A DNA stretch of 37,887 nt. Source: Jimgerdemannia flammicorona (taxonomy: Eukaryota). Both the position numbers and the translations under genes were made by a program. The notes beneath the pieces were generated by a model that saw nothing but the letters and a program-made list of their open reading frames with translations, ran no database searches and was not told where the DNA came from. The stretch covers positions 1 to 37,887 of the forward strand of contig RBNJ01000175.1 of the NCBI GenBank assembly GCA_003990765.1. The letters are read 5' to 3'. This document shows positions 1 through 37,887 of the stretch, piece after piece. Position 1 is the first letter of the stretch. Every line of letters starts with the position of its first letter.

Positions 1-276
1 CCCCCTCCCTCCTCCCACCCCCTCACGATGAAAGACCACTTTGTCAGATGCCAGTACCACTTGCCCACCACTCTGTTCACAGATCTCTTCCACTAGTTCG
101 TGATGTTGCCTACCCTGGAGACCCCAACCAACCCACCACCCAGTCAGCAAATCACCCAACAACCCCTCCCACCTTAACAACTTCTCCTAGATACCCATCT
201 ATCATCCCTCCTCAAAAACAAAGAGCCAATGTCCCACCAGCCCTACCCACACTGCTAAAACCCACCCAACCATGAG

Positions 277-3145: not shown

Positions 3146-3159
3146 TAGGAATAATGTTA

Positions 3160-5206: not shown

Positions 5207-5299
5207 TGCCTTAGTACCTTTCTCTTAATAAACGACTTGAAAGTGTGTTATAAAAGTGTGTATAATGTGAATTGCAACTGAGAAAGGCATGGTGGCTTC

Positions 5300-7000: not shown

Positions 7001-7431
7001 GATATACTAACTTCTGGTTGAGATCCTTCTAGTATCAGGTAATTAGTAAGTCTTTAGGTGATTACTTCTCTTTCTGTTCAAATACTGATGATGACTAATT
7101 CTTCTATAGTGATAGAGATTGAGATTATATCAAATATATTAATTTGGCTATTGGATTTCTGTAAGCTGAAAAGTCATATAGATTTAAATAAAAAAATTCC
7201 AGTTGAGCTCTCAAATGTAATATACTAGCTTAATAGAGATAAATTAAAAGATTAATACTACTATATTTTTTGGCTTAAGTCTTTATTTAATTTGTCAAAA
7301 AGTACAAAATAGTCAATGGTTTCTGAGTATAATATAAATGATTTTGATAAGTTTCCTAATTAGGTAGTATGGCATAATATGGAATAAAGCAGATTTCCTA
7401 AATATTGTAGATGGCTTAGATGATATAATAA

Positions 7432-7476
7432 CTCAGATAATACAGATAACTTAGATAACATAGATAACTTAGATAA
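7432..7476. repeat. 9-bp tandem repeat, 5 copies (nnnAGATAA)
   Basis: agataa at 7435, 7444, 7453, 7462 and 7471. Confidence 0.8.
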
Positions 7477-8359
7477 TAAGAATTCTTTCTAAATTAGTAG
7501 TCTTTTTAATAAAGTGGACTTCTTTTGAAAATAACTTAGATAGTATAGATTCTTTCTAATCAGCAGACTTCACTTAAAAATTGCAACTTTCCTTAAGCAG
7601 CAGATTACTCAGCAATATACTTCAGACTTAGTCTAACAGATATATATATCAAAATATAACAGACTTTTCAAAGTTATATTAAAGACTACTTTGTTTGCAT
7701 AAATAGATTCATTATAAAGTATGTATCTTATACTAGATAGGATTTGGATATTAGACTTCTTCTTTATATTGAAAACTGGACTAAAGTGAAAAATAACTCA
7801 AAACTTCTTAGCAATAGCTTATTAGCAGATTTCTCCTCCTAAGCATATTAGATAATTAGCTTTTACTTTTTTTTTTAATCTGAGATTTAGATACTCAAAT
7901 CTCTGAGATATTTTATAGTTATAGTTACTATCTGATATTGATATAGCTAAATTAGATTGCTATTTCTATTAGAAATATTAATTTCAAATTCTGATATAGT
8001 ATATCAGCTAGAAATATTAATATCAAATTTTGGTATATATAGTATAATACTTATATCCTTATTTAGCTATCTAGGATATTTATATAAGTTAGCATAATAG
8101 GATAGTTCTGGTTATCTAATATATCTGATATAGTATATGGCTAAATTATAGTAACTAATTTAGATAGTAACTTAGTATATTTCTCTTCTAACTTATCATA
8201 CTATAAATAATACTCAATTAAAAATTTATAATAGGTTTTTGATAAAAGAATCTAAGTTTACTTAAAAGAGTATTTAGAGTTAGCCAATTTGATAATAAAG
8301 TAAAGTCTAAAGTAACTGATATTTATACAAGTTAGAAGCTATCTAATATTAGACTAAAT

Positions 8360-8556
8360 ATATATCCCTTATTCTGTAAAATAATGCAGCCAAATTTGGC
8401 TGCAAAAAAATTAAAAAAAGTTAGAAAAGTTGAAAAAAAAATTGGATTTTTTGTTTATAATTTAATTTTTTGATTTTCTTTTGATTTTTATAATATTTTT
8501 ATAGTAGTTTTTTTTTTGCAGTCAAATTTGGCTATAATACAGAGTAAGGGATATAT
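8360..8556. mobile_element. MITE-like non-autonomous DNA transposon (~195 bp)
   Basis: Left end atatatcccttattctgta..gcagccaaatttggctgcaaaaaaa (8360-8410) matches the reverse complement of 8511-8556 (atatatcccttactctgtattatagccaaatttgactgcaaaaaaa). TA-rich flanks on both sides; non-coding A/T interior. Confidence 0.8.
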
Positions 8557-9133
8557 TTAATATATATAATAGTTATACTATAGAACTATTAATCTAAAGA
8601 TCTCATTCATATAATCAAAATTAACTAAGTAATCATAATTATAAAAATTGAGCTCTCTAGAGTTCTATTATATTTTAGCAGTCATATTACACTGATTATA
8701 TATAACAGCTATATGATGTAACTTAGATTAATTATTAATAATAGAAAAAAAAAATTACTATCAACTTTTATTCAATATTAATATTATTATATTAATATTA
8801 TAACTAGAAATATATACCTTATCTTCTGTTATGACAGTATTATATCTGTAATAACTTTATAGATCCAAGGCCAATATGTGCCTTTTGAGAATGATAATAA
8901 TATTATCAACAAATACTCAGATTGGGAGACATAAGAGAGATTTTATTAAGTAAAGTGAAATGTATAGTATTTAGTAATATAAATAACTAAAGAGTAGATA
9001 GTAATAATATAAGTATAATATTGTATATTCAGATAATAATTAGCAGTAGCTAATATGGTTAATATTTATAAATTGTTCAAATTTATTGTGAAATACTGGA
9101 ATTTGAGGGATAAAGGAGCAATCTTTATTGATA

Positions 9134-9224
9134 TGCGCGAAGCGCGTATTTACGCGTTGATGACGTTTCCACTGATGACGTCCTCACACGTGAGCTGCGC
9201 CACCTTCACGTGAGCTACATACCG
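9134..9224. promoter_or_regulatory. Isolated CpG-dense motif cluster (ACGCGT, 2x TGATGACGT, 2x CACGTGAGCT)
   Basis: 12 CpGs in ~90 bp within several kb essentially lacking CpG. MCB-like ACGCGT at 9152-9157, CRE-like motifs at 9158-9166 and 9173-9181, E-box motifs at 9187-9196 and 9207-9216. Regulatory function is inferred. Confidence 0.5.
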
Positions 9225-9999
9225 AGTTGATTAGCTAGAAATCTCAACAAAATTTACAATAATACTCTAAGAATTTGATGAGATTATTAAAAATAGGATC
9301 TCTAAGAAACTCATTATTCTTCACCTAAGGCTGTATTTGGTATTTGGTATGAAAAAGAAGAGATTTTGTAGCTCTCACTAAGAATTTATAGTTCTTTCTA
9401 CAAAGTTGGAGTATTTTACAGATCTTGTTTCAAAATTTCTGATTCTATGAGTAAAAATGCTAGATTGTAGACCTCTTTAGAATATGAAGAACATAAACAC
9501 TTAGAATGATAGAGCAAGTGCTTAAAATTGGAGGACCAATTTATTATTCTAATATTTGTAGATAGATTAGTATCTGTAGTAGTGATATTCATTGCCTTTA
9601 TAAAACAATAGACTCTATATATTAAACTATATATATATATATATGTATTCTAATATGAATCCACATTACAGAAAAAAACATTGCCTACACAAACTCCACC
9701 TTTATCACTATTCCATTTCCATATTATCTTTTTATTACTTTCCTCTAGACCCTCCCTCTCATCTCTCACATTTTTACCCCTTCTCTATCTCAAACCTATC
9801 TGCCATCATCTGATCTCAGTCTTAACTAGTACTATATATTACTTCTACATCTCTATCTGATAGAATAAGTATAACTGTTATATATTTTAAGAGTCAGAGA
9901 ACTAGAACAGATTATTTGAGAGGTCCTGAATATGAAAACAAAGAGAGTAACTATAAGTATATCAGTTATTTAATTCTTACCCTCTACTATAAAGATAAA

Positions 10000-10029
10000 A
10001 AAATAAAATAAAATAAAATAAAATAAAAT
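10000..10029. repeat. (AAAAT)6 microsatellite
   Basis: Read directly from the sequence. Confidence 0.9.
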
Positions 10030-10479
10030 AAAAAATCCCCCTTCACCCTCTTTATCATTTCTACAATCTGGATCACATTTTTAGTGATCAATTCAATGAA
10101 ACTTAAATAGTCTAGTTGTGATACTTTTTAAACTTCTTGATAATTTTGTCAGAGATACTTAATTTCTGACTCATTAGACTAAATGATATAGCTCTTCTAT
10201 ATAAGACACTAGCAAGTATATCAATGATAAAAATGATTATCTAAATTGTGTTGAAGATTTCTCCTTCATTTCTTATTAGTGAAAATACTGATAAGTTATA
10301 TATTGTACTCACTCTTGATATTACCTCTTCTATATCAAGATAAAACTACTTAAAGAGTAGAGAAGACTATCTGTAAATTGTGTCTTTGAGATATCCTAAA
10401 GAATAATAAATAAAGAGATTATATATATTTGTTATAATAGTTTACAGTCTGAAACACATATATAGCCACTCAGATACAG

Positions 10480-11585
10480 ACTTTACCAAGTATCTATACT
10501 GTTTGAGAGTATGGTGGTTAAAGCAAACTAGTGAGCTAAGGGGTTACAGTTGAGTTTCTCTTATACAGAGGGTGTAAGAGATATAGTTCTTCTCAAGAGA
10601 AGTATCCAGTAACTTGTTCTCTCTGGTAGCTCTTGAGAGAAGTTATAGGATATATTATAGAAACTTCTGGTAGAGAGTGGTTAATGGGGCCCATTGTATT
10701 GATATCTGCTAATAAAATAATAAGTAAGAGAAGAACTGGGGACTCCAGATATAGAGGTGAGACTGTCTTCTGTTAAGAAGTACTCTAGTAAATGATTTCT
10801 GTCTTGAGGATAATATGGAGTATCTGTGAGAACATAGGAGAGATCTATAGCTGGAGGCCTGACAGGTGGTAGGAATTAGTAAGAAATAGGACTGAGCTGA
10901 TATCTGATCATAGAGTAAGATATTGGTACAGAGGCTTCCACCTAAGTTCTGGATGATATGGTAGAGATTTCTATAATAAAGTATAATGTTGAACTTTTAG
11001 TTAAGATATCTGAGTGATGGGAGTATCTTTGATTACAAGAAGTGCTTTAATATTAAGCAGAAGATTGAGGTAGTACAGACTCTAGAACATTGACTGAGAG
11101 AGTGTGAGATCTTAGTAGACTTTTGAAGGATGATTAAAGAATAGCTGAGGATATAACCCTCTAAGCAGAAGGTGGAGAGGCAGTGGGATATTCTTCAGAT
11201 ATAGCTAGTGGAGGAAGTGAGTAATAAGTGATTGACAGTTGGGTAGGCTCTAGCTATTTAGATTGAGCTTACTAGACATTAGCTATATATTTTTGAAGAT
11301 GACCAGAAGTTGGTGCTTGGGGTGAGAGTTATGAGGTGAGAGTGATTGGTGTTGGAGCTTCTGAATGGATAGTGGCAGGGGTGGGGAACCTGAGGGAGTC
11401 TGCATTATAGACTGGTGGAGAAGATTTGTGCAAAGAGTAAGAAAAGGACCAATATATCTGGGGGGGTAATTTCCTTTCAAAGAAATGGAGGAAGAAGGGG
11501 GGAGTAGACTAATCTGTATTAATATAACATTAGTTTAGATTGGTTTGGTAATAAATATGAAAGTCCAAGCAATTATAAAAAAAAA
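10480..11585 (+). mobile_element. LINE F: 5'-truncated (~1.1 kb) plus-strand copy of the same LINE group
   Basis: Begins in ORF2 at DFTK.LYCLR.WW, homologous to 28291 region of D. AATAAA at 11550-11555 and A9 tail at 11577-11585. Degenerate 17-bp TSD tagccactcagatacag (10463-10479) / taaccgcccagacacgg (11586-11602), with all 5 differences being transitions. Confidence 0.88.
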
Positions 11586-13359: not shown

Positions 13360-14197
13360 TTATTCGATTATAAATTCCGTTCCATTTTTCATTTACGACC
13401 CGTCCTCCGATTTACGGCCCTTAATAACGCCGAGTTTCTTTAATGTATTTTATGCGCAGCAGACCCGAGGCCCGCGGCGGTATTGTGGTAGAAATTGCGA
13501 GATGGAGAATTTGGGCCCGTAGGGATTGTACGCCTCCACCAGGATATTATCCTCTTTTAAAATAAATAATTAATACGATATATCCACAGTCGCTTGTGTT
13601 AGGCTTTTCAGTCATTCCAACAGCACCACCACCACATTTCTTGTGCTGTCCATCGGTCCTTCGTGAGTCGTGAATCGAAATGCCGTTGGTAACGATCTCT
13701 ACACTGTCGCGGCAAACGTTTGAAGCCGGTCACTTCGATAAATTCAGAAGCACCAGTCATTGGAATGTGTCGAAATCGTTAAGTCTTCTTCATCGGTAAA
13801 AGGACCTGTCGGGGTGGGCACCAAAGAATGTGTACGACGTTTCTGAAGTCTTTCCACAGAAAGAAAGAATATAATGAAAGACTCCATACAAATCTTTCTT
13901 TTTCGGGTGGGTCACACTATCGTGCATGCACAACTGAAAAGGGGGGCTCGATTTCGAAAGTAGTTTTCGGCGAGGAACTTCCAGCGGAAACCTCATTGGG
14001 CTACCTTCGGCGATTTTCGTGGATTCTGGCGCACGGGGGGATTGGCCGATAGCTAGCCAGTTGCTACCGTATTTTGCGCAGGCTTTTCTGAGGATTTGGT
14101 CCTCTTCATTGGACCAAGATTTGGGGAACCAAGGATTTCGGGGCTGACTGAGCGGCGACGGTGAGGAAGCGGAACTGTGTAAGGATTGCAACAACGT
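13360..14197 (-). pseudogene. Myb-repeat paralogue 1 (pseudogene)
   Basis: KSWSNEEDQILRKACAKYGSNWLAI repeat; collinear with copy 3 including both intron positions and the terminal ATC GAA stop. The start position reads cgccACG instead of cgccATG; internal deletions and frameshifts. Confidence 0.85.
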
Positions 14198-14600
14198 GGC
14201 GAGGTGTGTCGTGTATGGCTTAGACCAGTCGGATGACCTCAGACGAAACGTTGGCGACCTCGGTGGATTAACAATATTGGATGAAACGGCACTGACTATT
14301 GATACTGAAACTGGCGTAAATCTGAATCCGAATCTGAACTGAACTAAGTATAGGGAATATTGTTCCGAGCGGTTTCGGCCACTTTGCCGTAGCTGAAACT
14401 ATGTTCTTAACTATATCCATCGAACGTCGGGCGCGGAATGTCGGTTCGCTACCTTCGACAACCCGCTTTATTATTCAAATGTCGATTTTTCCATTAGTCA
14501 CGCTCCACGCCAATATTGAACTTTATTGTGGTGTAGTTCGCTTTGGAAGGATTAAATACAATAACATTTCACATAGGCAAAGAAATACAAATGATGTGAT

Positions 14601-15508
14601 TTATTCGATATTAATTCTCGCGATTTTTTCGCTTATGTCTCGTCATCCGATTTACGGCCCTTAATAGGGCCGATTTTCTTCAAAATCTTTATGCGCTGCT
14701 GGACCCTGAGGCGCGCCGCGGTAGTCAGGCAGCAATTTCGAGATCGCCGGGAATTTGGGCCCGTAGGGATTGAGGCATCCACCAGGAATTTATCCTCTTA
14801 TAATGCAAATGTTGTGATATATCTGAAGTCGCTTGTGTCCAATCATTTCAACTGCTCACTACATACCTTGTGCCGTCCATGGATTCTTTACCACCTTTGG
14901 ATCCAAATCCCGTAGGTAACGAGCTTTACACGTTTGGCACCAGTCACTTTGCTAACTTCGGAAGTGATGGTCCCCCAGTCACTTGGATGATGCTTAAATG
15001 TGAATGGGTACGACATTTCTTATGGTATTCCACAGAAAAAATAATATATAGAACTGACTCTTTACATTACCTTATTTGCGACTGGGTCAGATCATAGTAC
15101 TTCACATTGTTCCTTGTCCCAACTCTCTGAGCCAACTCAATTTGTCATTTGGCTGGCTCTTTTCCTCAGGCAACCAAGTATCCGATTTCCCGGCACAGAA
15201 TCCCCACAGCGACCCAGCTCGATATGGAAAGTAGCCAACGGCGTGGAACCTCCAGTGGAAACCGTATTGGACCACCTTCTTCCGCTGGAGGCGTGTTTCA
15301 TCCTCCGTCCAAGCGAGAGAGCCGTCATGAGATTTCGGATCATGCATGAGTCTGACAAATCGCGAATAGGTGTGTGAATTGGGCAATACCTTGCCAGGTC
15401 CTTCCATTTTCGAGGGCTTCTCTGAGAATGCTGTCCTCTACGATGACCAACCGTATACTTGGGAGGTGACCGAGCAGAGATGGTGAGGAGTCAAGTGAAA
15501 CGGTACAT
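14601..15508 (-). pseudogene. Myb-repeat paralogue 2 (pseudogene)
   Basis: cgccATG at 15508 reads MYRFT*LLTISARSPPKYTV; contains LAWTEDETRLQRKKVVQYGFHW. Collinear with copy 3 but with an early stop, deletions and frameshifts. Confidence 0.85.
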
Positions 15509-16400
15509 GGCGTGTGTGGCTTAGACCAGTCGGGCGTGTGTACCTCAAAATTGACGCGAACTGCGCTACGCAAATGAGACCTCTTGAAATATATCTCGGA
15601 CTTACGCGGAGATCCCCATATATTTGTAGTATTTTAAGCAGTAAAATTATGTATTCTTTGGCTTGAATAAAAGGTCGGAGTCTAGAAGTCTAAAATCTGG
15701 AAGCCGCGTACATTCAGAACGGGTGGGGATCGGACATCCCAGGAATTCCCGTACGACAGGTCGTTTTTTCAGGGCCCCACGGCCGTCCCTAGACGCATTT
15801 CATACGTCCACATCGATCCAAAAATTTCCCTCTGTAAACCGCGACTCGATCATTTTCTGTGGAGCTGTCATAATCGCATCTCGTGGAACAATGACGTCAT
15901 ACAAACCGCTCGCCGCTATACGCATTCTACGCATACCCTCGAAGGACACGTGTGGGCTCAGGCGCGGGCTTACGCGGCGATCCTTACGCATTTCATAGTA
16001 TTAGTTTTGGAAACTTGCATAAATAGGGTGTAATAGAATCCAGCAGGCAAGGAATATACATGGTCCATCGCCACATCCGCACTAGCGATGAAGTTAGAAA
16101 ATGCGCAAGGCCCACACAGGCACAACGTGGCTCCCAACATAGCCAACCCGTTTCACTTGACGACTAATACCAGCCCGCCTAGCCTGTCGAACTGCCGGGT
16201 TTTCCAGGAGTCACGATCCGCGTCAATTGCAGCGACGCCGTTGGAAAGGGACCTTGAAATTGACCTTTTAATATTACTTATTTGGCATTTGTGTAGTTCA
16301 TTTCCACTCACTATGGATTGGAAAGTAACTAGAGTAACTTCGTTTGGAAAATTTCAATACAAAAAGCAATTTATATGTATAAAGAAATACAATTGATGGT

Positions 16401-17522
16401 TCATTCGATTTTATATCCTTCGCCATTTCCCTCTTGCGACTCCTCTTCCAATTTACAGTCTTTAATAATGCCGTGCTTCTTTAATGCCCGTAAGCGCCCA
16501 CGGATTTGAAATTGACCGCGGTAGCTGGGTAGCAATTGCGAGATGGCGGAGATTTTAGTGCCATAGCGATTATAGGCGTCCCCCAGGATTTTATCCTCTT
16601 ATAATGGAGTAAGTAAATAATCGATGTGATAGATATTAAGTCGTTTGTGTCAAAAATTTAAATCATTCCAACAGTGCACACAAACCTTGTGCTGTCCATG
16701 GGTCCTTCACCAACATTGGATCCAAATTCCATTTGTAATGAGTTCTACACTGTCTCGGCGAACGTATTATACCAGTCACTTTGCTAACTTCAGACGCAAT
16801 GAGCCCCCAGTCGTTTGGATGTTGCTTGAATGCATCGAGAATCGCCTTGTTTTCTTCAGGGGTAAAGTGACCTGTCGGGGTGAATAACATTAACAATGAA
16901 TGTGTACAATATTTTCTGAAGGAATTCCACAAAAATTAATTAGACTCCATACAATACCTTTCTTTGTCAACTTGGCCAGACAATAGTACTTATGCCAACA
17001 CTGCATGTAGTTCCTTGTCCCAACTCTCTGGGCGATGGCTGGCCAACTCAATATGCCATTTTGGGTGGCGTCTAATAGCCTCTGTTCCTCCTCAGGCTGC
17101 CAGGCGCCCAAATTTTGGCGAAGATTCCCCACAGCGGGCCAACGACTCGACAGCTGACTGGGGCCTCGATTTGGAAAGTAGAGTTCCGCGAGGAGTTTCC
17201 AGCGGAAACCGTATAGGGCCACCTTCTCACGTAGGAGGTGGGTTTCGTCCTCTGTCCAAGCGAGAGAGCGGTCACGAATAGGTTTCGGATCACGCGCTAC
17301 CGGTGGCGCGAGCCTCGTGAAGCGCAAAGCGCAGGCGTTGGGCGTGCGGTCAGGGAGGGATTGGGCAATAACCTGCCAGCGACAGCCGTTGGCGCGGGCT
17401 TCTCTGAGGATGTTGTCCTCTTCGTTGGACCAAGCTTTGCGGACTGTATACTTGGGAGGTGATCGAGCAGAGATGGTGAGGAAACGGAATTGGGTCAAGG
17501 ATTGCTTTATGAAACGGAACAT
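16401..17522 (-). CDS. Intact five-repeat Myb/SANT protein, 315 aa, 3 exons (17522-16958, 16871-16686, 16597-16401), possible mitochondrial presequence
   Basis: Exon lengths 565+186+197=948 nt stay in frame across two phase-1 GT-AG introns (86 and 88 nt) to TGA at 16403-16401. Repeats begin KAWSNEED, LAWTEDET, GAWQPEEE, GHFTPEEN and DPWTAQED. The second acceptor is AAG, conserved in paralogues 1 and 2. Confidence 0.88.
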
Positions 17523-18386: not shown

Positions 18387-18995
18387 TCATTCGATTTTAA
18401 AATCCTCGCCATTGCTCTCTTGCGACTCGTCTTCCGATTTACGATCGTTAATAACGCCGCGACTCGTTAATGCCTTTAAGCGCTCATGGACCCGAGACCA
18501 ACCGCGGTAGTTGGGCAGCAGTTGCGAGATCAAAGAGATTTTAGAGCCGTAGCAATTGTAGGCATCCAACAGGATTTTATGCAATAATTAAATAAATATA
18601 TATATTAAAATCACTTGTGTCAGGAGTTTCATTCATTCCAACAGCAAACCACATACCTTCCGCTGTCCATGGGTCCTTCACCACCTTTGGATCCAAATTC
18701 CGTTGGTAATGAGCTTTACACTGTGACGGCAAACGATTCAAACCGGTCACCTTGATAACTTCAGAGGCGAATGGCCCCCCAGTCGTTTGGATGTTGCTTG
18801 ACTGCATTCAGAATAACCTTTTTCTTCATTGGTGAAGCGACCTGTTCGGTGGATAATAGCGAATGAGTGTGACATTTCTCAAGGCATTCTACAGAAATAA
18901 ACCATATTGAACAGATCCCATATGATACCTTTCCTTTTTGACTAGGTCATACTCTTGTACTTTTGCTAACACTGTATTAGGTTCCTTGTGCCAAC

Positions 18996-19027: not shown

Positions 19028-19246
19028 CAGGATCAAGACCCCATGGAATTTTATTAGAAGAGAACCTAGACTATATAGGCCAAAACCCTCCCCCACCCCT
19101 ATCCCAAACACTACACCCCCATTAAATATAGGCTTGCTATTGTTCAGAGTTCTACTGTACCAGGTACAGTAGAGCTTACTTTAGCCTGCACCTTATTCTA
19201 CACACTATGCTCTCCCTACCAGTTGGAGAAAAGTGACCAATAATAA

Positions 19247-22200
19247 TCATTCCCAATGTGCCACCTTGTCCCCAACCCCAACCTGCCATCCCTCCTCAAA
19301 TACATGAACCCAATGCCCAGCCAACCCAACCCACATGGCCAGAGCCCAGCCAAGGGTCAGCCATTCATCCCCAACCCCACCCACCAGTCTCCAGTAAAGC
19401 TCTTCCCATCTCTCTCCTTCCCCTCCCTCCAAGGCACACAGCCCTAACTAGACCATGATACATCTCCAAAACTCCTCCAAAACCTCACACTCGCTAAGCC
19501 AATGTTCAGGTGTTTGTACCACTCCTCCCTCCTGACCAATGTTGAAACATTTCTCACACTTGAATACTCCACCATCCATCAAGTATCCAGACTGATAGTT
19601 CAACATCACATTCTGCCATAAGACTCACCACCACACCACCCAGAACTTGGGGGACAGCCACTGCCTCACCTGTTTGCTCCAAAGCCAGAGCCCATTCCAA
19701 TTCCACTCCTCACCAATTTCAACCCTCTACCAGGCTTCTGGCCACAGGTCTCTACCCAAGTCCTGCAGACACTCCATACTCTCACTAAGCTGAAAATCCT
19801 CCACCGGAATACCACCCAGTAGAAGCCTGTCCCACTGCCACATCCGTGGTCCCCAATCCTCCTTAGCCTCATCACCTCACTACTGAAGTTCAATTTTCTT
19901 AGCTCCATCCACCACCCCCCACCAGAAGCCCATAAACCACATCCTCCTGCTCTCCTCCATGGTTGCCATTGCAAGCAGGTCACCAGAGTCACTATGAGGG
20001 GAATACTGAACCTCCTACACCCTCTGCATGAGTGGCACTCACTCCCAACCCCTTAGCTCACTTGTCCTCCTCAACCACCAAGCTCTCAAGCAGTATAGCC
20101 ACTTAGTAAAGTCAACTAAACCCAGCCCACCTCTTTCCATGGGTAGTGTGAGCACCTCCCAGCCTACCTGGCTTCACCACCCTCCCCAGATCCATGACCT
20201 CGCCATCCTCAACAGCCCCCTGACCACCCAAGTTGGAAAATCCAAATGATACCCCACATACCACAGCTTTGGCATCCAATATACATTCAGCACTATCACC
20301 CTTCCAGCTAGGGACATATACTGACCTTCCCATCACAGCAGAACATTTCCCCACTCCAGAAGCTGTTGGTTCCACTATACATGGGGAAGAAGAGATCCAA
20401 ATACTGAGAAGTAGATCTCCAAATAATGCACTGGTTTGCCAGCTGGCACCACCATCCCAATTACATTGCCACCAACAATTCCAGCACTCAGCACCAGAGT
20501 CTTGCATTTGTGCCAGTTTAGTTTAGCACCAGAGCCCCTCTCAAACCATTTCATGGACCTTCATAACTTCCCCACATCCATCAAGGAGCCCAGCCTGACC
20601 ACTATATCATCAGCAAAGGCCCCCACCTTCCAATTAACCCCTAAAATATCCAAACCCCCAATCTGATGCTGAATCCTGTCCAGTAGGGGCTCCAAGGAGA
20701 GGGCATACAATATGGGTGACAAGGGGTCCCCTTGTAGCACCCCCCACCCCAGAGGAAAGGCCACTCCCCTGTAGCTATTGATGACCAACACTGCCTGACT
20801 GTCCTCCAAGAGGCCAATCAATGAACCTCGGAACCCCAGGGGGATACCAATCCATTTCAGTACTCCCTCTAGCCAGATCCTCCGCACTCTATCATAAGCC
20901 TTCTCTTGATCCAGAAATACCAACTGGTCATCCACTCCTATAGTCTGGGCACCTTCAATCACTCTATATACCCAAGCTGTTCCATCACAAATCAACCAGC
21001 CACCAATAAACCCATGCTGCTCCACACCAAGCACCTGCTGAGCGATTCCTTGCAGCCTTGTCACCAAGATCTTTGTCACCAGTTTATGGTCTATGTCAAG
21101 TAGCATGATCAGCCATCAGTTCTTTCAATCTTCCTGCCTCCCCTTATTCTTATAGAGCAAGGAGACTAGCCCTAGGCACTGGCCCCCAATCTAAGTACCA
21201 GACTGAAGAACCTTATCATACATAGCAGTCATTTCCTCTAGCACCTTGCCCACCTTAGCCATCTTCTTTCAAAAATCCCAGGGAAGTCCATCCTCCCCCA
21301 GAGCCATCCCCTTACTCGTCGAGGCCACAACCTTGCAAATTTTCTTGCCACTCACTGGGTCCCCCAAAGCCTCTAGACCCATCACAGAGTTTGGGTGTCA
21401 ATCCCCTAGCTGCCTTTCAATGTCCAAAGCCTCTGCACCCCCTTCCTCCTCACTCCATAGATTCTCCCAATGGGTACTCAGCAAGCCCAGAATCACCAGA
21501 GTCCCCACCACCAGCTCACCATTCATATCCAGAACTCCCTCCCACCATTGTTTCGTTTGTCATACTAATAACAACTGCATCAAAAACCTAGTAGGCCTCT
21601 CCCCCTCCTCAAGCCCCTGCCACTGCAGTTGGGCCACTATCCTCTGTAGCCTCACCTCCTTCTCTCCTCATAACACTCCTTTAAGCTCCTCCACCTCCTT
21701 TCGGATTCTCACAATACACCAATCAGTTATCTCCCCGACTTCTAACATGCCTGCCCATCTCCCCATGGGTGCCTCCAAACACTGCAAGGTCCACAACACC
21801 TGCTGCCACCACTGGATACACCTTCCTTTCCCTGCTTCCCTCCAATATTCCTGAGCATTCACCTTCAGTCTCCTCCAGCAGTCCCCAATCTCCAGGCCCC
21901 ATTCCCACCACCTTCTAATATTCCCAACAATCTCCATTTCCCAACCCTTCCACAAAGCCCTATCCTCCAACAAGGAAGAATTTAGCCACCAATGTTCAGG
22001 CCCATCCTCCCTTCCCCCAAACCTCCCCCCTCCAAGCAACCCCCAGTGATCAGACTACGGATATGAAACCACCTCCAGTGCTATCCAGACATCTGCTCCC
22101 CAACACTCTGCTGTCAAAACCCAGTCAATCCTGGAGCCCAGCCCTGCTGCTCAGTGGGTGTACACCCACTGATCACCCCAAAACTGCCTTTCTGAGTCCA

Positions 22201-22726
22201 CTAAAGAACTCAGCCTCTCTGCCTCCAACCAGTCACCCAACCCACCACTCTCACTCTGCATGTCTCTCCCTCCATCTGTTCTATCTATCTCCTTGTCCTG
22301 TACCATGTTGAAATCACCCCCCATATAGTCCAACCCAACCTCTCCCAAGACACTGGCCTCTTTTAGCCTGTGAATCCAATCCACCCTCTCCCCTCTCTCA
22401 GCTGGGCAGTAACAAGACCCAATCATCAACGAGCTCCATCCAGGCCTCCTACACACTCCCTACACCACCCAAGACTCCCAATGTCCAATGTCCCCAATGT
22501 CCCCCATCCCTTTCTGAATGAGAATACCCACTTTCTCCCTCCACACCACCACCCCCCCCCATTCCTTAGTCCAATCCTATAAATCTACATCTGCCTCAAA
22601 ATGAATATCCTGTAACAAGAAGAGGTCCACATCCAGTCCCTTAAGCCATCCAAATATATACTTCCTCCTAGCTGCCCCCCATAACCCATTGACATTCAAA
22701 GAGAATATTCTAGTTATACTGTTCAT
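19247..22726 (-). pseudogene. LINE B ORF2 (APE + RT + CCHC), disrupted
   Basis: ATG at 22726; GGDFNMV, FLDQEKAYDRV, QGDPLSP and GAFADD motifs; many stops. The 3' limit is approximate. Confidence 0.92.
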
Positions 22727-22757
22727 ATTGAGAGAATGTTTCAATAGAGACCCCAGT

Positions 22758-24668
22758 CTAGTATTCTATGCTCATCTCATCCCCAGTCAGATCTAAGTGT
22801 CATTCAGCTTCCAAGTCAACCTCAGCATTAGTCTGAGCATCCAGTGCCTCCAAGATTTCCTGACATTCCACTCCATCTACTATCTCCATCTCTGACCAGT
22901 AATCCATGCAGACTGTATGCCACTTCTCCAGTCCCTTCCTTGAGTTCCACAAGTATAATGCCCTGTCACTCACAATCCTCCTAAGTTCCTCTTCTCTCTG
23001 ATCATTGACTTGATATTCAACTGACTCCAGGAGAACAGCCAGGATCTCATTCCTCATCTTCCTTGGCACCTCCTCCCCCTATAGAATCTCCTCTCAATAC
23101 CTCTCCTCCATAACTCTGAAATCCTCTCCCCTCAGCTCTTCTGCCACAACCCCTTCCAGTGTCTTCCACATCCACTTCTCCTCATCCACAGCCTCCGCCA
23201 CACCCTGAGTGACTTGTCCCCCATCCACCTCAGGGTCCACCAGTGTGCTCCTCCTCACTGACTCATCCTACTCCTCATCTGGTACATCCAGCAGCACCTC
23301 CTCTCCCTCAGCTCCACCTGGGACACTATACTGAGGGTGGACCCCTTTGCTCATTTCCACATCTGCCTCCACATCACCTTCCCTTTCCTCCTCCACTCCA
23401 ATCCGAGCCCCACCCTGGGCCCTTTCACCTCCCTTAGCCCAGGCACTCTCCTGCAATCCTGCAACCCCCTCCCCTGAGCTTCCACTAGCCCAACCCCCAC
23501 CCAACTTTGCTAGCAGCTCCTTCTGGATTTTCCTCCCCTATATCTTCTTCCAGGCCCCCCTCTCTATCTGGACCCTCTTCTCATCCACCTTCCCCACCAC
23601 TGTCCTGGCCTCAAACTCCTCCCAGGCCAATCTCCTCCTTGCAACTGCCCCTTCCAGGTCCTCCAGAGCCTCCAACAGATCTTCCTCCTCCTCCTGGATC
23701 CCCTTCATCCTTGTGACCTTGCACTCCACCTGACCCTACCTCAGTATCGCTGGCCAGTCCCTCGACTTTCCCATACTCTCCTTTCCAGCCAGCCTCACTC
23801 TGATATCGACATCACCAGTCTGAAGCTCCATACCCTCCCAGACTCTGAACCCAACATCCACAATCTCTCCATACTCCTTGATCACCTCCACCACCAACTC
23901 TCTGGTCCTCTCCTTCAACACTATGGGGAGATCCAATACCATCAACTGCACCACTCAGGGGTTCCAGTACATGCACCTGGCCATAGAGACCACAACCCCT
24001 CCAACTGTCACCCCCTTCTCCAAGGCTGCCAGCAAGGTATCTTCCTCCTCAAACCCCACCTCTACCCCTTCCTTCCTCTTCAAAAACTTCATGGATGCTG
24101 CTCCCTTTGCCTCCTGCACCACTAGCCCCAAAATCATCCTCGCTGTCACTGCCAAGCCTCAGAATTACATTGTGACCACAAATTCTGATCTCGACTTCTT
24201 GAGTAATGGGGCTGACACCATACCCATCACCCCATCTGCCAGGTCTCCAGGCCTTGTGCCCACTCCTTGTTCTGAATCATCAACCACTATTATATCTGGA
24301 TTTTTTGCCAGATCCCCAGTCACAGCCCCATCAACAGTCACATCTCCAGCCCCTACTCCCACTCCTTCTCTACCACTGGAAGCTCCCCTGGGCACACCTC
24401 CCTGTCCCCCAGCAGCAGCTGTCGACACCTTCCCTAGGCCCAGCCAACCATCCAGACCAGAGGCCATCTTTCCCATTCTGACCTTGTCCACAAAGGTCAA
24501 CCAATCCCCTCCTCTCTGCCTCAGACCATCCCTCCCTTCACCCCCAGGGCTACAGCTAGCCATCAAGGCCCCTGGTATCTCCAAACCATCTCCCCTCCTC
24601 CACCTACTGCCAGCCAAAGGCACTGCCACTCCCCTGACCAGTACACTCACCAGTTTGATCATTGCCAT
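22758..24668 (-). pseudogene. LINE B ORF1, disrupted
   Basis: Fragments 24165-24668, 23955-24155, 23736-23954, 23538-23729 and 22800-23069 are collinear with D ORF1. Confidence 0.85.
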
Positions 24669-24754
24669 CCATGTCGATAGTCATTAGACACCAAAAATGT
24701 AGTAAAAAGTGTTGTCAGAGTCTTGTATCACCTGAATGTTACTGGTGAAAGATG

Positions 24755-25739
24755 TTTAGAGAAAAGTGATCATACATATGCTAATGACTGAATGTATATG
24801 CTCAAATCTCTAGTATATATACAAGACTATATTAGAGCTAGATAATAAAGTCTCTGCTATCTCAAATAGAGTGACAGATAAAGAAAAAACCCTCCAAAAG
24901 ATACAGAACAGTAGATAGGGTCTGGTACTCTCTAATGGAGTGAGTGAAGAACTTATATATGAGATAGAAGAAGATCTCCAATATCCCACTACTCAAGTCT
25001 ATAGACCTTGATTGGATTATCTTTTCAGCTCTTAGTTCTAGTTAAGTATAGTCTAAATATACAATTTAGATAGCCTCAGACCTCTCAATAATTCCAAATA
25101 ATCAGAATCTAACCTTTTATCACTAAGAGTAACTAAGAGTAATACCTACTATCTAACTATCTTATATCAATCAGAAGGCCCCACTAATATAATATTTATA
25201 ATAATCTTGATGACTATCAATTGTCTGACATATAACTAGTCTACTATAATTATTCTTTTATCTATCTGTAATAATTATCTCCTCTTCTATTCTGATACTA
25301 TCTAAAAAAAAGTTATCTATACCAGAACATTGCTCACCAAGAAGCTCACCAAGCTCAGAGAGCTTATTATAAATATATACTAAAGATTTACTATAATCTT
25401 TACTGATATTTGATACATAAGATTAGCAAACTCTTTATATATATAGTCTATAATATACTAAAATAATATCTTATTAATAATAGCAAAAGAAAGAAAATAT
25501 TATACTAAAATAGATATACTCTAGATATATTCAAAAGTATCAAAAACTATAGAAAAGTAAAGAAAGTACTAATCTAATATTAATAAAAGGGCAACTGATT
25601 ACTATTGTCTTTCTCTCACTATTATTTAGTAGATACAGTAAATCACACTGAGATAGAGGGGGTAAAGTTAGAGGAAAAGAGATTCAAATAATTATTCACC
25701 AATATCTTATAACTAATATAATAGTAGAGAAAGAAGCTA
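24755..25739. other. ~985-bp heavily mutated segment of unknown origin between the LINE B 5' end and the right-hand TSD
   Basis: No visible similarity to the LINEs or Myb genes; CpG-free and TpA-rich; enclosed by the duplicated target 18983-19000 / 25740-25756. Confidence 0.55.
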
Positions 25740-26201
25740 TCCTTGTTCAACTCTCTAAACTATAGTTTGCTAACTCAATTTTCCATTCTGAGTGGTATCT
25801 AATAGTTTCTATTCCTCTTTAGACAACTAGGCACCAGATTACTGAGGCAGATTTCTCACAGTTGGTTGATAAGTATATAACTGAGTAGAGACTTAATTTC
25901 AAAAAATTGCAAAAACTATATTGGGTTACTTTCTCTTATAGATGACAGAATTTGTCCTTGGTTTAAGAGAGAGATCTGTCACTAATAGGTTTTTAATCAT
26001 ATATAACTAATATCATAAGTCTGGTAAAGTATAAAGATAAGGCCTTAGATATGTAATTAAAGATATATTAGATAATAGTCAATTAGAACTAGCAGAATAT
26101 ATAGGTTTTTCTGAGAATATTGTCCTCTTTGTTAAACTAAGCTTTATATAGAGAATTTTTAAAGTAACTGATCAAATAATGAGAAAGCAAGAATTGCTTT
26201 C
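25740..26201 (-). pseudogene. Myb-repeat paralogue 4, 5' part, hypermutated
   Basis: Aligns by eye to copy 3 at 17012-17508. For example ttccattctgagtggtatctaatagtttctattcctc vs tgccattttgggtggcgtctaatagcctctgttcctc, and ctgagaatattgtcctctttgttaaactaagcttt vs ctgaggatgttgtcctcttcgttggaccaagcttt. Most differences are C>T or G>A. Confidence 0.88.
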
Positions 26202-27142
26202 TTTTTTTTTTTTTTTTTTTTTTTATTCTATAGATATAAGATCTATTTATTAACTAATTTATAATAAATATACAGTTCTTATCTTATACTAATAGTCTCA
26301 ACCCAATTTACTCTACCTTAATATATTTTCTTCTCTTCACTCTCATCTTCTCAAAAATAACTATACTATTAACTATTATAATCTACCTACTACTCTTCTT
26401 ATAAATCTCTTCTATCAGATATTAATAGCAATCACTCTATAGGTCCCACCCCCTCTATTAGCTAGAAAGCATATCCACCATTAGTTCTTCTTATCTTATT
26501 ACCTTTTTCCCTAAGATCATCTATCTTCTATCCTTAAATACATATAACTAATGATCAGTTAACCCTATCTATACTACTAATATCTACTCAATAGTGAGTC
26601 ACTCATTACTAATATATTTTATTAGCCACTTTCTTAAGTTATCCTATCCATATCCTCCTCTATCTATATGCTATCTCACTCTCAGATAGTCTTTAACTCT
26701 CTTCCATAAGTTATTAAGTACTTCACACTCACCTAGCTAATATTCAGATATCTACTAAATTTCTTCCTTTTGTTCTACATTAAGACACTCCTTATACTTA
26801 AAACTGTTGCCCCCTATCAAGTATTCTGATCTAAAGTTTAATATGATATTTCTTCTCAGGATATACTACTATACTATCTAAAACTTTAGAGAAAGTTACT
26901 ACTATATCTTAGCACTCTAAAACCATACTCTAGCCCAGTCTCAAGTCTTACTAATATCTGCTGTCTATAGTCCAATGATCATAGATTCTGATCCACCCCC
27001 CACTGATACTCTATACCTATACTAAAATTAAAGTTTATCAATAACCAACTACCCAACAGAAGTCTGTCTCACCTCTATATTATAGGACCCCATTGGGCTT
27101 CTCCCTTATTATTATACTATTAAAAATCAATATAGTGAGCCA

Positions 27143-30200: not shown

Positions 30201-30903
30201 TCCCCCCTCTGAGCAGCCCCTAGTGATCAGACCATGGACACCATATGACTTCCAGCACTGACCAGACATCTGTCCCCCAACACTCTGCCGTTAGAACCCA
30301 GTCAATCCTAGAGCCCAGTCCTGCCACCCAGTGGGTGTACATCTACCAATCGGCCCAAAAATGTCTTCCTGAGTCTACTAGAGAACACAACCTCTCCATC
30401 TCCAACCAGTCACCCAACCCACCACTTTCACTCCACATGCCTCTCCCTCCATCAGTTCTGTCCAACTCCTTATCCCGTACCATGTTGAAGTCACCCCCCA
30501 TACAGTCTAACCCAACTTCTCCCAACACACCAGCCTCCTTCAATCCATGGATCCATTCCACCCTCTCCCCTCTCTTAGCTGGGCAGTAACAGGACCCGAC
30601 TGTCAGTGGGCCCCATCCAGGCCTCTTCCACACTCCCCACACCACCCGAGACCCCCAATGTCCAATGTTCCCAATGTCCCCCATCCCTTTCCAAATGAGA
30701 ATACACACTTTTCCCCTCCAAACTGCTGTGCCCCCCCATTCCTTAGTCCAATCCTGTAAGTCTACATCTGCCTCATAACGAATATCCTGCAGTAAGAAGA
30801 GGTCTGCATCCAGTCTCTTAAGCCAACCAAAAATATACTTCCTCCTAGCCGACCCCCGTAGCCCATTAACATTCAATGAGAAAATCCTAGTTGTACTGTT
30901 CAT
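27230..30903 (-). pseudogene. LINE D ORF2 (APE + RT + CCHC), disrupted by stops
   Basis: MNSTTRIFSLNVNGLRG (ATG 30903), FLLQD, GGDFN, FLDQEKAYDRV, GVPQGDPLSP, GAIADD, YLGI and CKDC...EHWLGEC. The 3' limit is approximate. Confidence 0.93.
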
Positions 30904-30934
30904 ATTGAAGAAATGTTGCAATAGAGACCCCAAT

Positions 30935-32848: not shown

Positions 32849-32945
32849 CCATGTTGTTAGTTGTCAGACACCAAAAACATTGTACAAAGTGTTGTCTGAG
32901 TCTTGTGTCACCCGAATGTTACTGGTGAAAGATGAAGATATCCTG

Positions 32946-37857: not shown

Positions 37858-37887
<30 letters not shown>
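37858..37887 (-). mobile_element. Poly(T) run, probable poly(A) tail of a further minus-strand retroelement
   Basis: At least 30 T running off the window; the three other long T runs here are LINE tails. Confidence 0.55.

What the first reader, a model, noticed from the sequence alone, without database searches (positions are those of the whole stretch)
16401..17522. Intact five-repeat Myb protein with a mitochondrial-presequence-like N-terminus
Seen: a spliced 315-aa product made almost entirely of five Myb/SANT repeats, preceded by MFRFIKQSLTQFRFLTISARSPPKYTVRK. That leader is rich in R/K/S/T and hydrophobic residues, with no acidic residue before the first repeat, and no activation-like domain follows. 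Established: this composition typifies mitochondrial targeting peptides, while characterised multi-repeat Myb proteins (c-Myb, Cdc5/Cef1, Bas1, SNAP190) are nuclear. Inference: this may be an organelle-targeted Myb-repeat nucleic-acid-binding family acting on mtDNA or mtRNA as a modular binder.
Basis: partly seen in the sequence, partly recalled or inferred. Interest (0 to 1): 0.8.

Follow-up and report, generated by a model that had tools for sequence, protein, structure and literature searches.

The report
Five-repeat Myb gene with mitochondrial-type leader
This is an intact, expressed fungal gene for a small protein made of five Myb DNA-binding repeats behind an N-terminal leader that looks like a mitochondrial import signal, and relatives across the same fungal phylum keep that kind of leader, so it may belong to an undescribed group of mitochondrial nucleic-acid binders, though import has not been tested.

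Summary
The minus-strand three-exon gene at 16401-17522 encodes exactly the 315-aa protein described. It is identical to an annotated hypothetical protein of Jimgerdemannia flammicorona (Endogonales). RNA contigs confirm both introns, and none shows an upstream exon. Pfam and an AlphaFold model show five canonical three-helix Myb repeats behind a disordered leader of about 30 residues.

Only about 30 residues precede repeat 1, so the protein lacks the N-terminal region through which SNAPc4 binds its partners. It also has no domain after the repeats, so it fits neither c-Myb nor Cdc5.

The leader's character (almost no acidic residues; rich in R/K, S/T and hydrophobic residues) is kept while its sequence and length change. 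This holds in diverged paralogs, in Umbelopsis orthologues and in a second Mucoromycota family with 6-11 Pfam-detected repeats.

No dedicated predictor or localisation data were available. The hydrophobic moment does not exceed shuffles. The first 20 residues are unusually conserved among close paralogs.

The gene is the one intact copy in an array of decayed copies among LINE relics. The recognition helices are the most variable parts.

Best reading: a matrix-imported sequence-specific nucleic-acid binder (about 0.5). Main rival: a nuclear Myb factor (about 0.33).

The parts
16401..17522 (-). Whole gene from start codon to stop codon (three exons, two introns), encoding the 315-aa five-Myb protein P0004
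   Evidence: reading and translation; identical annotated 315-aa protein; spliced RNA contigs
16958..17522 (-). Exon 1 (residues 1-188 plus the first base of codon 189): leader and Myb repeats 1-3
   Evidence: Pfam PF00249 E 2.2e-26 with 3 stretches
17433..17522 (-). Codons 1-30: the presequence-like leader. It has no D/E, 7 R/K and an R13-F14-L15-T16 motif of the processing-peptidase type. It is disordered in the model.
   Evidence: pLDDT below 50 for residues 1-27
17307..17432 (-). Myb repeat 1 (about residues 31-72)
   Evidence: PF00249 best stretch 28-70; helices 33-44, 49-55 and 61-71
17127..17258 (-). Myb repeat 2 (about residues 89-132)
   Evidence: PF13921 stretch 89-149; helices 91-104, 108-114 and 121-131
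16965..17102 (-). Myb repeat 3 (about residues 141-186)
   Evidence: Helices 143-154, 160-167 and 172-185; aligned to SNAPC4 and c-Myb repeats
16872..16957 (-). Intron 1 (86 nt, GT..AG on the minus strand)
   Evidence: Read; a join skipping 86 nt seen in 1 contig each of X1 and X2
16686..16871 (-). Exon 2 (residues 189-251, with split codons at both ends): Myb repeat 4 and the start of repeat 5
   Evidence: PF00249 E 6e-10
16720..16866 (-). Myb repeat 4 (about residues 191-239). It carries the family-specific 'VTGxxR' insertion between helices 2 and 3.
   Evidence: alignments; helices 193-205, 210-221 and 227-238
16598..16685 (-). Intron 2 (88 nt, GT..AG on the minus strand)
   Evidence: Read; a join 16597 to 16686 seen in 1 contig of X1. 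X3 shows another join, 16524 to 16686, in a 95-99%-alike contig.
16473..16698 (-). Myb repeat 5 (about residues 247-292), interrupted by intron 2. It is not detected by Pfam on exon 3 alone.
   Evidence: Helices 249-262, 266-272 and 279-291; aligned to c-Myb R3
16401..16597 (-). Exon 3 (residues 251-315 and the stop codon 16401-16403), including the short acidic tail
13363..14201 (-). Decayed paralog copy A: pieces in three frames, 47-73% identical to P0004
   Evidence: tblastn; ORF pieces; repeat families D8, D9, D11 and D15
14706..15532 (-). Decayed paralog copy B (frameshifted)
18390..18892 (-). Paralog copy D: only the part matching residues 173-315 is detected (41-65% identical); no part matching the 5' end was found
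   Evidence: D10: 79% DNA identity to exon 3
25749..26169 (-). Relic of a further copy (matches residues 21-167, 35-48% identical) in an AT-rich stretch between two LINE relics

Best explanation
The gene encodes a basic protein (pI about 9.7) that is essentially an array of five canonical Myb repeats, preceded by a cleavable matrix-targeting presequence.

Proposed mechanism:
1. The protein is made in the cytosol.
2. Its N-terminal 15-30 residues take it through the TOM/TIM23 import route. This step is inferred.
3. The leader is cut around R13-F14|L15-T16. This is inferred from a short motif.
4. The mature array of about 300 residues binds a specific stretch of mitochondrial nucleic acid, with the third helix of each repeat reading the sequence. 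dsDNA is the more likely target, by analogy with R2R3 Myb, SNAPc4 and Reb1.
5. It then acts as a site-specific roadblock or organiser for transcription, replication or RNA processing.

The gene belongs to a family of five-repeat proteins found in Mucoromycotina (Jimgerdemannia and Umbelopsis). In Jimgerdemannia this family has multiplied by tandem duplication and decay, and the recognition helices have diverged fastest.

Shown: the gene model, its expression, the five repeats, the family, and the conserved leader character. Inferred: import, the cleavage site, the target and the role.
For: Gene and expression.

Five Myb repeats with R2R3-type geometry:
- Pfam.
- AlphaFold model with 15 main helices and residues 1-27 disordered.
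- Foldseek repeat pairs at TM 0.72-0.84 (normalised to the target) to DNA-bound c-Myb and Trichomonas Myb2/Myb3.

Basic charge: net charge +15 and pI 9.8 for the Myb region.

Leader composition in this protein: 0 D/E, 7 R/K and 6 S/T in 29 residues.

Leader character kept while sequence and length vary (30-87 aa) in 12 of 12 family members:
- These include paralogs only 28-38% identical (P0013, P0019, P0079).
- They also include Umbelopsis orthologues 24-26% identical (P0125, P0190). These share the five-repeat architecture and the repeat-4 'VTGxxR' insertion.
- D/E is 1.4% in the leaders against 12.8% in the rest of the proteins.

A second family, defined by a signature in its first repeat and not by its leader:
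- 11 of 149 representative hits carry the signature. Those named are from Mucor, Rhizopus, Spinellus, Syncephalastrum and Circinella. Pfam found 7-10 repeats in the seven of them that were scanned.
- Their leaders are 10-55 aa long, with D/E 1.2% against 12.9% in the rest.

Such N-termini are uncommon among the other Myb hits. The median position of the first acidic residue is 10. It lies at 30 or beyond in 17 of 127, and many of those 17 belong to the long family.

A processing-type motif, R-x-[FLYI]-[STA], occurs in the first 60 residues in 17 of 28 family proteins against 25 of 111 others.

No classical K[KR]x[KR] nuclear localisation signal in P0004; 9 of 12 family members have none.

No upstream exon or start was seen.
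Against: - No dedicated targeting predictor could be run, and there are no localisation or proteomic data.
- The amphipathic moment of the leader (0.45) was reached by 1820 of 5000 composition-preserving shuffles. Amphipathicity is therefore not shown beyond composition.
- Among the seven close paralogs, residues 1-20 are the most conserved 20-residue window (rank 1 of 296). This is unusual for a presequence and fits a specific binding motif or a nucleic-acid-level signal as well.
- The motif enrichment rests on related, non-independent sequences.
- All solved relatives are nuclear proteins.
- Many paralogs and pseudogenes beside LINE relics would also fit a fast-evolving nuclear family of repeat- or transposon-binding proteins.
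- RNA contig ends are not mapped transcript starts. The contig that ends in adapter sequence is only 92% alike, so it may come from a paralog.
Confidence: 0.5

Rival explanations
1. It is a nuclear sequence-specific Myb factor of a fast-evolving, lineage-specific family. It might bind promoters, repeats, rDNA or telomere-like or transposon sequences. Its conserved N-terminal 20 residues would then be a protein-interaction or regulatory motif and not a targeting signal.
For: - All solved relatives are nuclear (SNAPC4, c-Myb, Reb1, Cdc5/Cef1).
- The first 20 residues are the most conserved window among close paralogs (rank 1 of 296), as expected of a binding motif.
- The hydrophobic moment is not above shuffles.
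- There are tandem copies and pseudogenes among LINE relics, and the recognition helices are variable. This recalls fast-evolving nuclear DNA-binder families.
Against: - The leader keeps its acid-free, basic, hydroxyl-rich character while its sequence and length change, in 12 of 12 family members and in a second family. A binding motif would not do that.
- P0004 has no classical nuclear localisation signal.
- There is no activation, repression or partner-binding domain outside the repeats.
Confidence: 0.33
2. It is the Jimgerdemannia form of SNAPc4 (SNAP190), the Myb subunit of the snRNA-activating complex, or a direct derivative still working in snRNA gene transcription.
For: SNAPC4 is the best solved match by sequence profile (7xur_A, 3e-23). 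It is also the best by fold, with 299 aligned columns that are co-linear over the multi-repeat array (E 1.7e-07). Both proteins have about five repeats.
Against: - c-Myb scores practically the same (1.6e-22), and the profile aligns to SNAPC4 in two registers shifted by one repeat. The likeness is therefore generic.
- TM is only 0.36 at rmsd 17 A.
- Only about 30 residues precede repeat 1. There is no room for the region that binds SNAPC1 and SNAPC3 (the role of that region is recalled from the SNAPc literature).
- There are at least ten paralogs in one species, which is not expected of a core transcription factor.
Confidence: 0.05
3. The protein is dual-targeted or 'eclipsed'. Part of the pool enters mitochondria through the leader, and part stays outside or returns to the nucleus, linking the two genomes.
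For: The same evidence as for the leader. In addition, the RNA contigs end 1-6 nt upstream of the ATG. A 5' UTR that short could make initiation inefficient, which is an inference.
Against: Nothing specific supports two destinations. The next in-frame Met is residue 173, so no leaderless full-length isoform can arise from a downstream start.
Confidence: 0.1

Closest known systems
SNAPc4 / SNAP190 Myb domain (human mini-SNAPc, PDB 7xur; also 7zwc, 9fso)
   Same: Both carry an array of about five consecutive Myb repeats that reads a long DNA element. It is the best profile match (3e-23) and the best fold match.
   Different: - Here there is no N-terminal region for binding SNAPC1 and SNAPC3 and no long C-terminal part. 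The protein is 315 aa, against 1469 aa for the SNAPC4 chain listed.
- It is multi-copy.
- It has a presequence-like leader.
- The similarity is not better than that to c-Myb.
c-Myb / R2R3 and 3R Myb factors (PDB 1h88, 1mse; Trichomonas Myb2/Myb3, 3osf, 3zqc)
   Same: The repeats are canonical. Repeat 4, helix 3 (RQCRTHYKWNL) aligns with c-Myb R2 (KQCRERWHNHL). Repeat pairs superpose at TM 0.72-0.84 normalised to the target.
   Different: There are five repeats rather than two or three. There is no transactivation or regulatory domain. The recognition helices are the least conserved parts among paralogs.
Reb1 / TTF-I / Nsi1 / Rtf1 type Myb terminators (PDB 5eyb)
   Same: These are multi-Myb-like DNA binders that work as polar roadblocks for polymerases and replication forks. 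That is the mechanism proposed here for a mitochondrial target. The profile match is 5.4e-11.
   Different: The match is weaker than to SNAPC4 or c-Myb. Those proteins are nuclear or nucleolar, and they have extra domains for termination.
mTERF and PPR families (organellar helical-repeat nucleic-acid binders)
   Same: If the leader is a real presequence, the two would share several features. Both would be nuclear-encoded, imported, modular helical-repeat proteins that bind organellar DNA or RNA. Family size differs between lineages in both. Restorer-like PPR genes also lie in clusters with pseudogenes and show variable recognition residues (this last point is recalled, not tested).
   Different: The fold is unrelated. 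Only Myb-type Pfam families were found at E up to 0.001 in the 18 family proteins scanned.
Long Mucoromycota poly-Myb family (e.g. Mucor circinelloides HMPREF1544_03254, Rhizopus delemar RO3G_10124; uncharacterised)
   Same: Both consist of Myb repeats only, directly behind an acid-free leader rich in R, S and T. Both occur in the same phylum. The profile of the five-repeat family aligns co-linearly, over its repeats 1-4, to C-terminal repeats of the long proteins.
   Different: Proteins carrying the first-repeat signature are 558-692 aa, with 7-10 Pfam-detected repeats in the seven scanned. Five further look-alikes scanned (482-733 aa) have 6-11. The first-repeat signature (W-x-P/S-W-E-D) is distinct. 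No tandem expansion was seen for them here. Whether the two families are sister groups was not tested by a tree.

Membership tests
Myb/SANT repeat proteins (Pfam PF00249 / PF13921) | Repeats of about 50 residues that score above the Pfam gathering threshold | tested here: met
   PF00249 scored 148.5 bits (cut-off 24.4) with 4 stretches. PF13921 scored 114.5 bits with 3 stretches.
Myb/SANT repeat proteins (Pfam PF00249 / PF13921) | Three-helix bundle in each repeat, with regularly spaced aromatic residues | tested here: met
   The AlphaFold model has five groups of three helices. W31/W49, W89/W108/W128, W141/W160/W176, F191/W210/Y234 and W247 are read.
SNAPc4 / SNAP190 | Co-linear array of 4.5 Myb repeats (Rh, Ra-Rd) | tested here: inconclusive
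   It is the best PDB match (3e-23) but aligns in two registers, and c-Myb scores 1.6e-22. Foldseek gave 299 columns at TM 0.36.
SNAPc4 / SNAP190 | Region N-terminal to the Myb repeats that assembles with SNAPC1 and SNAPC3 (feature recalled from the literature) | tested here: not met
   Only 30 residues precede repeat 1, and they are disordered in the model. Across the family the leaders are 30-87 aa with no conserved domain.
c-Myb / R2R3-Myb transcription factors | Two or three repeats followed by activation or regulatory domains | tested here: not met
   There are five repeats. Only a 24-residue tail follows, and it is absent or different in paralogs.
Cdc5 / Cef1 | Myb repeats at the extreme N-terminus plus a long C-terminal spliceosomal part; high similarity across eukaryotes | tested here: not met
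   Matches are weak (E 1.5e-08 to 5.6e-07 for full-length chains of 587-833 aa). This protein has 315 aa and a leader.
Mitochondrial matrix-targeting presequence | N-terminal stretch lacking acidic residues and enriched in R/K, S/T and hydrophobic residues | tested here: met
   P0004 has 0 D/E, 7 R/K and 6 S/T in 29 residues. Across 12 of 12 family members, D/E is 1.4% in the leaders against 12.8% in the rest.
Mitochondrial matrix-targeting presequence | Ability to form a positively charged amphipathic helix | tested here: inconclusive
   The maximum hydrophobic moment is 0.45 (18-residue window, 100 degrees). It was reached by 1820 of 5000 shuffles of the same residues.
Mitochondrial matrix-targeting presequence | Processing-peptidase motif with Arg at -2/-3 (R-x-[FLY]-[STA]; definition recalled) | tested here: met
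   R13-F14-L15-T16 is present. The motif occurs in the first 60 aa of 17 of 28 family proteins against 25 of 111 other Myb hits. It is a short motif and the sequences are related, so the weight is low.
Mitochondrial matrix-targeting presequence | Character conserved but sequence free to drift between homologues | tested here: inconclusive
   This is met between subfamilies and genera. Within the seven close paralogs, however, residues 1-20 are the most conserved window (rank 1 of 296).
Mitochondrial matrix-targeting presequence | High score from a trained predictor; import and cleavage shown experimentally | not testable with these tools
mTERF / PPR organellar repeat proteins | mTERF or PPR repeat motifs | tested here: not met
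   The Pfam scan of 18 family proteins listed only Myb/SANT-type families at E up to 0.001.

The most novel reading that the evidence does not exclude
Mucoromycota fungi carry a previously unrecognised class of mitochondrially imported poly-Myb proteins with 5 to 11 repeats. These would act as modular, sequence-specific binders of the mitochondrial genome or its transcripts, a role filled elsewhere by mTERF and PPR proteins. In Jimgerdemannia the five-repeat branch would be in birth-and-death evolution, with a tandem array, pseudogenes and fast-changing recognition helices. That pattern is expected if the proteins track changing mitochondrial targets such as selfish elements, in the way restorer-type PPR genes do in plants.
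Probability: 0.15. Interest if true: 0.85.

Novelty: new variant of a known kind. Interest (0 to 1): 0.6.

Why it matters
Every Myb-repeat protein with a solved structure found here is nuclear. I also know of none described as a resident mitochondrial protein, and six literature searches found none.

If the leaders are real presequences, Myb arrays join mTERF, PPR and related folds as a further, independently recruited scaffold for reading organellar genomes. That would give a handle on mitochondrial gene expression in Mucoromycota, which is barely studied. The phylum includes the agents of mucormycosis and important plant symbionts.

The claim is cheap to test with a leader-GFP fusion in Mucor or yeast, or with a mitochondrial proteome.

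If the protein is nuclear, the gene is an ordinary member of a lineage-specific Myb expansion. The finding is then of local interest only.

Tried and rejected
- Whole-genome access: none is held for this window. The paralogs' DNA, the mitochondrial genome and a proteome-wide control for N-termini were therefore out of reach.
- Single-linkage clustering of the 150 best Myb hits, meant to define families independently. The first run timed out. The second merged 121 proteins into one cluster because repeats align everywhere. I replaced it with a signature in the first repeat.
- ESM Atlas look-up of P0004: only generic Myb clusters, scores 0.76-0.82, below the level that means anything.
- Rfam scan of the window: 0 matches.
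- Earlier notes of this scan: nothing by place, by words or by sequence.
- Literature:
  - The phrase 'mitochondrial Myb' occurs in 0 papers.
  - Locus tags and UniProt ids of family members occur in 0 papers.
  - Four broader term combinations gave listings with nothing relevant in titles or abstracts.
  - The Jimgerdemannia listing was not read further.
  - No paper was opened.
- Idea that the Myb gene is an ORF of the neighbouring LINE elements: rejected. It is a spliced, separately transcribed gene, and it has relatives in Umbelopsis on contigs of 0.8-2.5 Mb.
- Secretory signal peptide: rejected on inspection. Basic residues are spread through the leader and there is no uninterrupted hydrophobic core.
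- Run X3 (a metatranscriptome holding 0.10 of the sampled words) showed 95-99%-alike contigs and a different join, 16524 to 16686. This probably comes from a relative or paralog, and I draw nothing about habitat from it.
Full report
**What is there.**
The stretch 16401-17522 holds a minus-strand gene of three exons:
- exon 1: 17522-16958
- intron 1: 16957-16872 (86 nt)
- exon 2: 16871-16686
- intron 2: 16685-16598 (88 nt)
- exon 3: 16597-16404, with the stop at 16403-16401

Both introns have GT..AG ends. The exon translations plus two split codons give 315 residues, beginning MFRFIKQSLTQFRFLTISARSPPKYTVRK.

A word-index search returned 7 proteins at E up to 0.001 among 52 candidates. All are from Jimgerdemannia flammicorona (Endogonales, Mucoromycota). 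The best, P0004, is a 315-aa 'hypothetical protein' that is 100% identical over exon 1. It lies on a contig of 37,887 bases, the length of the window. The window is therefore a contig of that fungus, and the gene model is the annotated one.

**Expression and start.**
Three public runs hold parts of the stretch. Laid on it, contigs of X1 and X2 join 16869/16871 to 16956/16958, skipping 86 nt. A contig of X1 joins 16597 to 16686, skipping 88 nt. Both introns are thus removed as modelled, and these runs contain RNA of this gene or a near-identical allele.

The 742-nt X1 contig is 99% alike and ends at 17523, one base upstream of the ATG. A short contig, only 92% alike and so possibly from a paralog, ends at 17528 and runs into adapter sequence. 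Depth is zero from 17569 on, and no contig joins to an upstream exon.

The reading frame is open upstream to 17660 but holds no other ATG. Contig ends are not mapped transcript starts. Still, nothing points to an upstream coding exon.

**The protein.**
- Pfam finds Myb_DNA-binding (PF00249, 148.5 bits, 4 stretches) and Myb_DNA-bind_6 (exon-wise).
- The AlphaFold model was built on seven paralogs (mean pLDDT 71.9, pTM 0.36). It shows five groups of three helices, with residues 1-27 and 299-315 disordered.
- The fifth repeat is split by intron 2. Pfam misses it on exon 3 alone, but it aligns with c-Myb R3.
- Foldseek places repeat pairs on DNA-bound c-Myb and Trichomonas Myb2/Myb3 at TM 0.72-0.84, normalised to the target.
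- The Myb region has net charge about +15 and pI 9.8.

It is thus a nucleic-acid binder of the canonical Myb kind, with essentially nothing else attached. The only additions are the leader and a short acidic tail that paralogs lack or vary.

**Not a known nuclear factor.**
A profile of the seven paralogs against all PDB sequences matched 44 distinct sequences:
- SNAPC4: 3e-23
- c-Myb: 1.6e-22
- Trichomonas MYB21 (entries 3osf/3osg): 3.9e-20
- Reb1: 5.4e-11
- Cef1/Cdc5: about 1e-8 to 1e-7

The near tie between SNAPC4 and c-Myb, and the two shifted registers of the SNAPC4 alignment, indicate generic Myb likeness. The co-linear fold match to SNAPC4 has TM 0.36 at rmsd 17 A.

Only 30 residues precede repeat 1. 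There is no room for the SNAPC1/SNAPC3-binding region of SNAPc4 (that feature is recalled from the literature). The species also has many paralogs. I therefore do not file the protein under SNAPc4, c-Myb or Cdc5.

**The family.**
An exhaustive HMMER search with the paralog profile found 24,945 proteins at E up to 0.001, as expected for Myb repeats. Of these, 116 were at E up to 1e-30, and the best 150 were listed.

Besides the close paralogs (61-69% identical over exon 1; 61-65% over the full length), three much more diverged Jimgerdemannia proteins have the same size and five-repeat plan. They are P0013 and P0019 (317 aa) and P0079 (369 aa), 28-38% identical to P0004. Umbelopsis proteins do too: P0125 (339 aa) and P0190 (344 aa), 24-26% identical.

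They share a peculiar insertion in repeat 4 ('VTGxxR') and the end of repeat 5. A profile of these six found no further full-length members (26 proteins at E up to 1e-10 among 5,426 candidates). That search is word-based and length-limited, so absence elsewhere is not shown.

**The leader across the family.**
In 12 of 12 five-repeat proteins, the part before repeat 1 is 30-87 residues long. It differs in sequence between subfamilies and is nearly free of acidic residues. D/E is 1.4% there against 12.8% in the rest of the same proteins. S/T is 19.5% against 11.4%.

While listing N-termini of the other hits, I noticed a second set of proteins with textbook-looking leaders directly before their first repeat. 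Examples begin MLRRLLSS..., MLARRCLPSL... and MLAVFARKYASL....

To avoid circularity I defined this set by a signature in the first repeat (W-x-P/S-W-E-D), not by the leader:
- 11 of 149 representative hits carry the signature.
- Their leaders are 10-55 residues long.
- D/E is 1.2% in the leaders against 12.9% in the rest; S/T is 20.6% against 12.0%.
- Where named, the signature carriers come from Mucor, Rhizopus, Spinellus, Syncephalastrum and Circinella, and all are annotated as hypothetical.
- Pfam found 7-10 repeats in the seven signature carriers that were scanned (558-692 aa). Five further look-alikes without the exact signature, one of them from Umbelopsis, have 6-11 repeats in 482-733 aa.

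Among the remaining Myb hits such N-termini are uncommon. The median position of the first acidic residue is 10. It lies at 30 or beyond in 17 of 127, and a good part of those 17 are this same family.

**Other leader tests.**
- A processing-type motif (R-x-[FLYI]-[STA]; here R13-F14-L15-T16) occurs in the first 60 residues of 17 of 28 family proteins, against 25 of 111 others. The sequences are related and the motif is short, so this counts for little.
- P0004 has no classical K[KR]x[KR] nuclear localisation signal.

**What speaks against, or is unexplained.**
- The hydrophobic moment of the leader (0.45) is reached by 1820 of 5000 shuffles. Only composition is shown, not amphipathic order.
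- No trained predictor could be run, and there are no localisation data.
- Among the seven close paralogs, residues 1-20 form the most conserved 20-residue window of the protein (rank 1 of 296). A presequence would be expected to drift. This suggests an added constraint. It could be a specific interaction, or a nucleic-acid-level signal, given that transcripts seem to begin almost at the ATG.
- All structurally known relatives are nuclear.

**Genomic setting.**
The gene is the only intact copy in a head-to-tail array. tblastn with P0004 finds four other copies:
- a frameshifted copy at 13363-14201
- a frameshifted copy at 14706-15532
- a copy detected only from residue 173 on, at 18390-18892
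- a relic at 25749-26169

DNA repeat families are spaced 1.2-2.0 kb apart.

The array lies between diverged copies (76-84% identical, spacing 8,177-8,180) of an element with strong strand bias (GC skew about -0.5). That element carries a reverse-transcriptase fragment (RVT_1, 5.8e-14, 20564-21115 minus). It also has a weak endonuclease-like hit, below the Pfam cut-off (30346-30948 minus). The other 12 of 14 ORFs scanned had no hit. These look like decayed non-LTR retrotransposons.

Within the close paralogs, helix 3 of the repeats, the recognition helix, is the most variable element. Mean column entropy is 1.13, against 0.51 for helix 1 and 0.85 for helix 2. By Mann-Whitney test, helix 3 exceeds helix 1 at p = 1e-5 and helix 2 at p = 0.04. 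This fits diversifying binding specificities. With seven sequences and no codon data, however, it is only a pointer.

**Verdict.**
The comparative behaviour of the leader is what a targeting peptide would show, and the obvious refutations failed. Import itself and any mitochondrial role remain inferred.

I put about 0.5 on a matrix-imported, sequence-specific nucleic-acid binder. The alternatives are:
- a nuclear lineage-specific Myb factor: 0.33
- dual targeting: about 0.1
- a SNAPc4 derivative: about 0.05

Six literature searches gave no description of a resident mitochondrial Myb-repeat protein. I saw listings and abstracts only, opened no paper, and many subscription papers are not in the library.

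The fold and the repeat type are ordinary. The possible destination and the phylum-wide pair of 'Myb-only' families behind presequence-like leaders are what is new.

Noticed in passing
Proteins P0030, P0033, P0034, P0050, P0055, P0067, P0080, P0082, P0101, P0122, P0131 (not in the window): A second, uncharacterised Mucoromycota family made only of Myb repeats. Pfam found 7-10 repeats in the seven members scanned (558-692 aa). Each begins with an acid-free leader rich in R, S and T. Named members come from Mucor, Rhizopus, Spinellus, Syncephalastrum and Circinella, and a look-alike without the exact signature (P0046) comes from Umbelopsis.
   Followed up: partly
window 1-5000, 19100-25000, 27300-33000: Three diverged copies of one element. 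The two downstream copies are 8,177-8,180 bases apart and 76-84% identical. The element has an extreme strand bias (GC skew about -0.5 at about 50% GC). It carries a reverse-transcriptase fragment (20564-21115, minus) and a weak endonuclease-like hit (30346-30948, minus). These look like decayed non-LTR retrotransposons. The cause of the skew was not examined.
   Followed up: partly
window 5000-11000, 25000-27000, 33000-37887: AT-rich blocks (GC 0.21-0.35) alternate with the retroelement relics, which have GC about 0.5. One block holds a relic of a Myb gene copy (25749-26169). Whether the low GC reflects repeat-induced-point-mutation-like decay was not tested.
   Followed up: no
window 13363-14201, 14706-15532, 18390-18892: Three decayed or partial tandem copies of the Myb gene flank the intact one. 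The sequence upstream of the start codon is also alike between copies, so the duplicated unit appears to include the promoter region.
   Followed up: partly
window 17433-17522 (codons 1-30) and alignment A1: Residues 1-20 are the most conserved 20-residue window among the seven close paralogs (rank 1 of 296), while the recognition helices are the most variable elements. RNA contigs end only 1-6 nt upstream of the ATG, so the 5' UTR may be extremely short.
   Followed up: partly
window 16524-16686 (run X3): A metatranscriptome contig, 95-99% alike, joins 16524 to 16686 (skipping 161 nt) instead of 16597 to 16686. This is either an alternative acceptor or a paralog or relative with a different exon 3 boundary.
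   Followed up: no
Proteins P0112 (Gracilariopsis chorda), P0138 and P0107 (Quaeritorhiza haematococci), P0145 (Rhizophagus irregularis): Small multi-Myb proteins from a red alga, a chytrid and a glomeromycete also begin with long N-terminal extensions that are acid-poor and basic. Their relationship to the family described here was not established.
   Followed up: no
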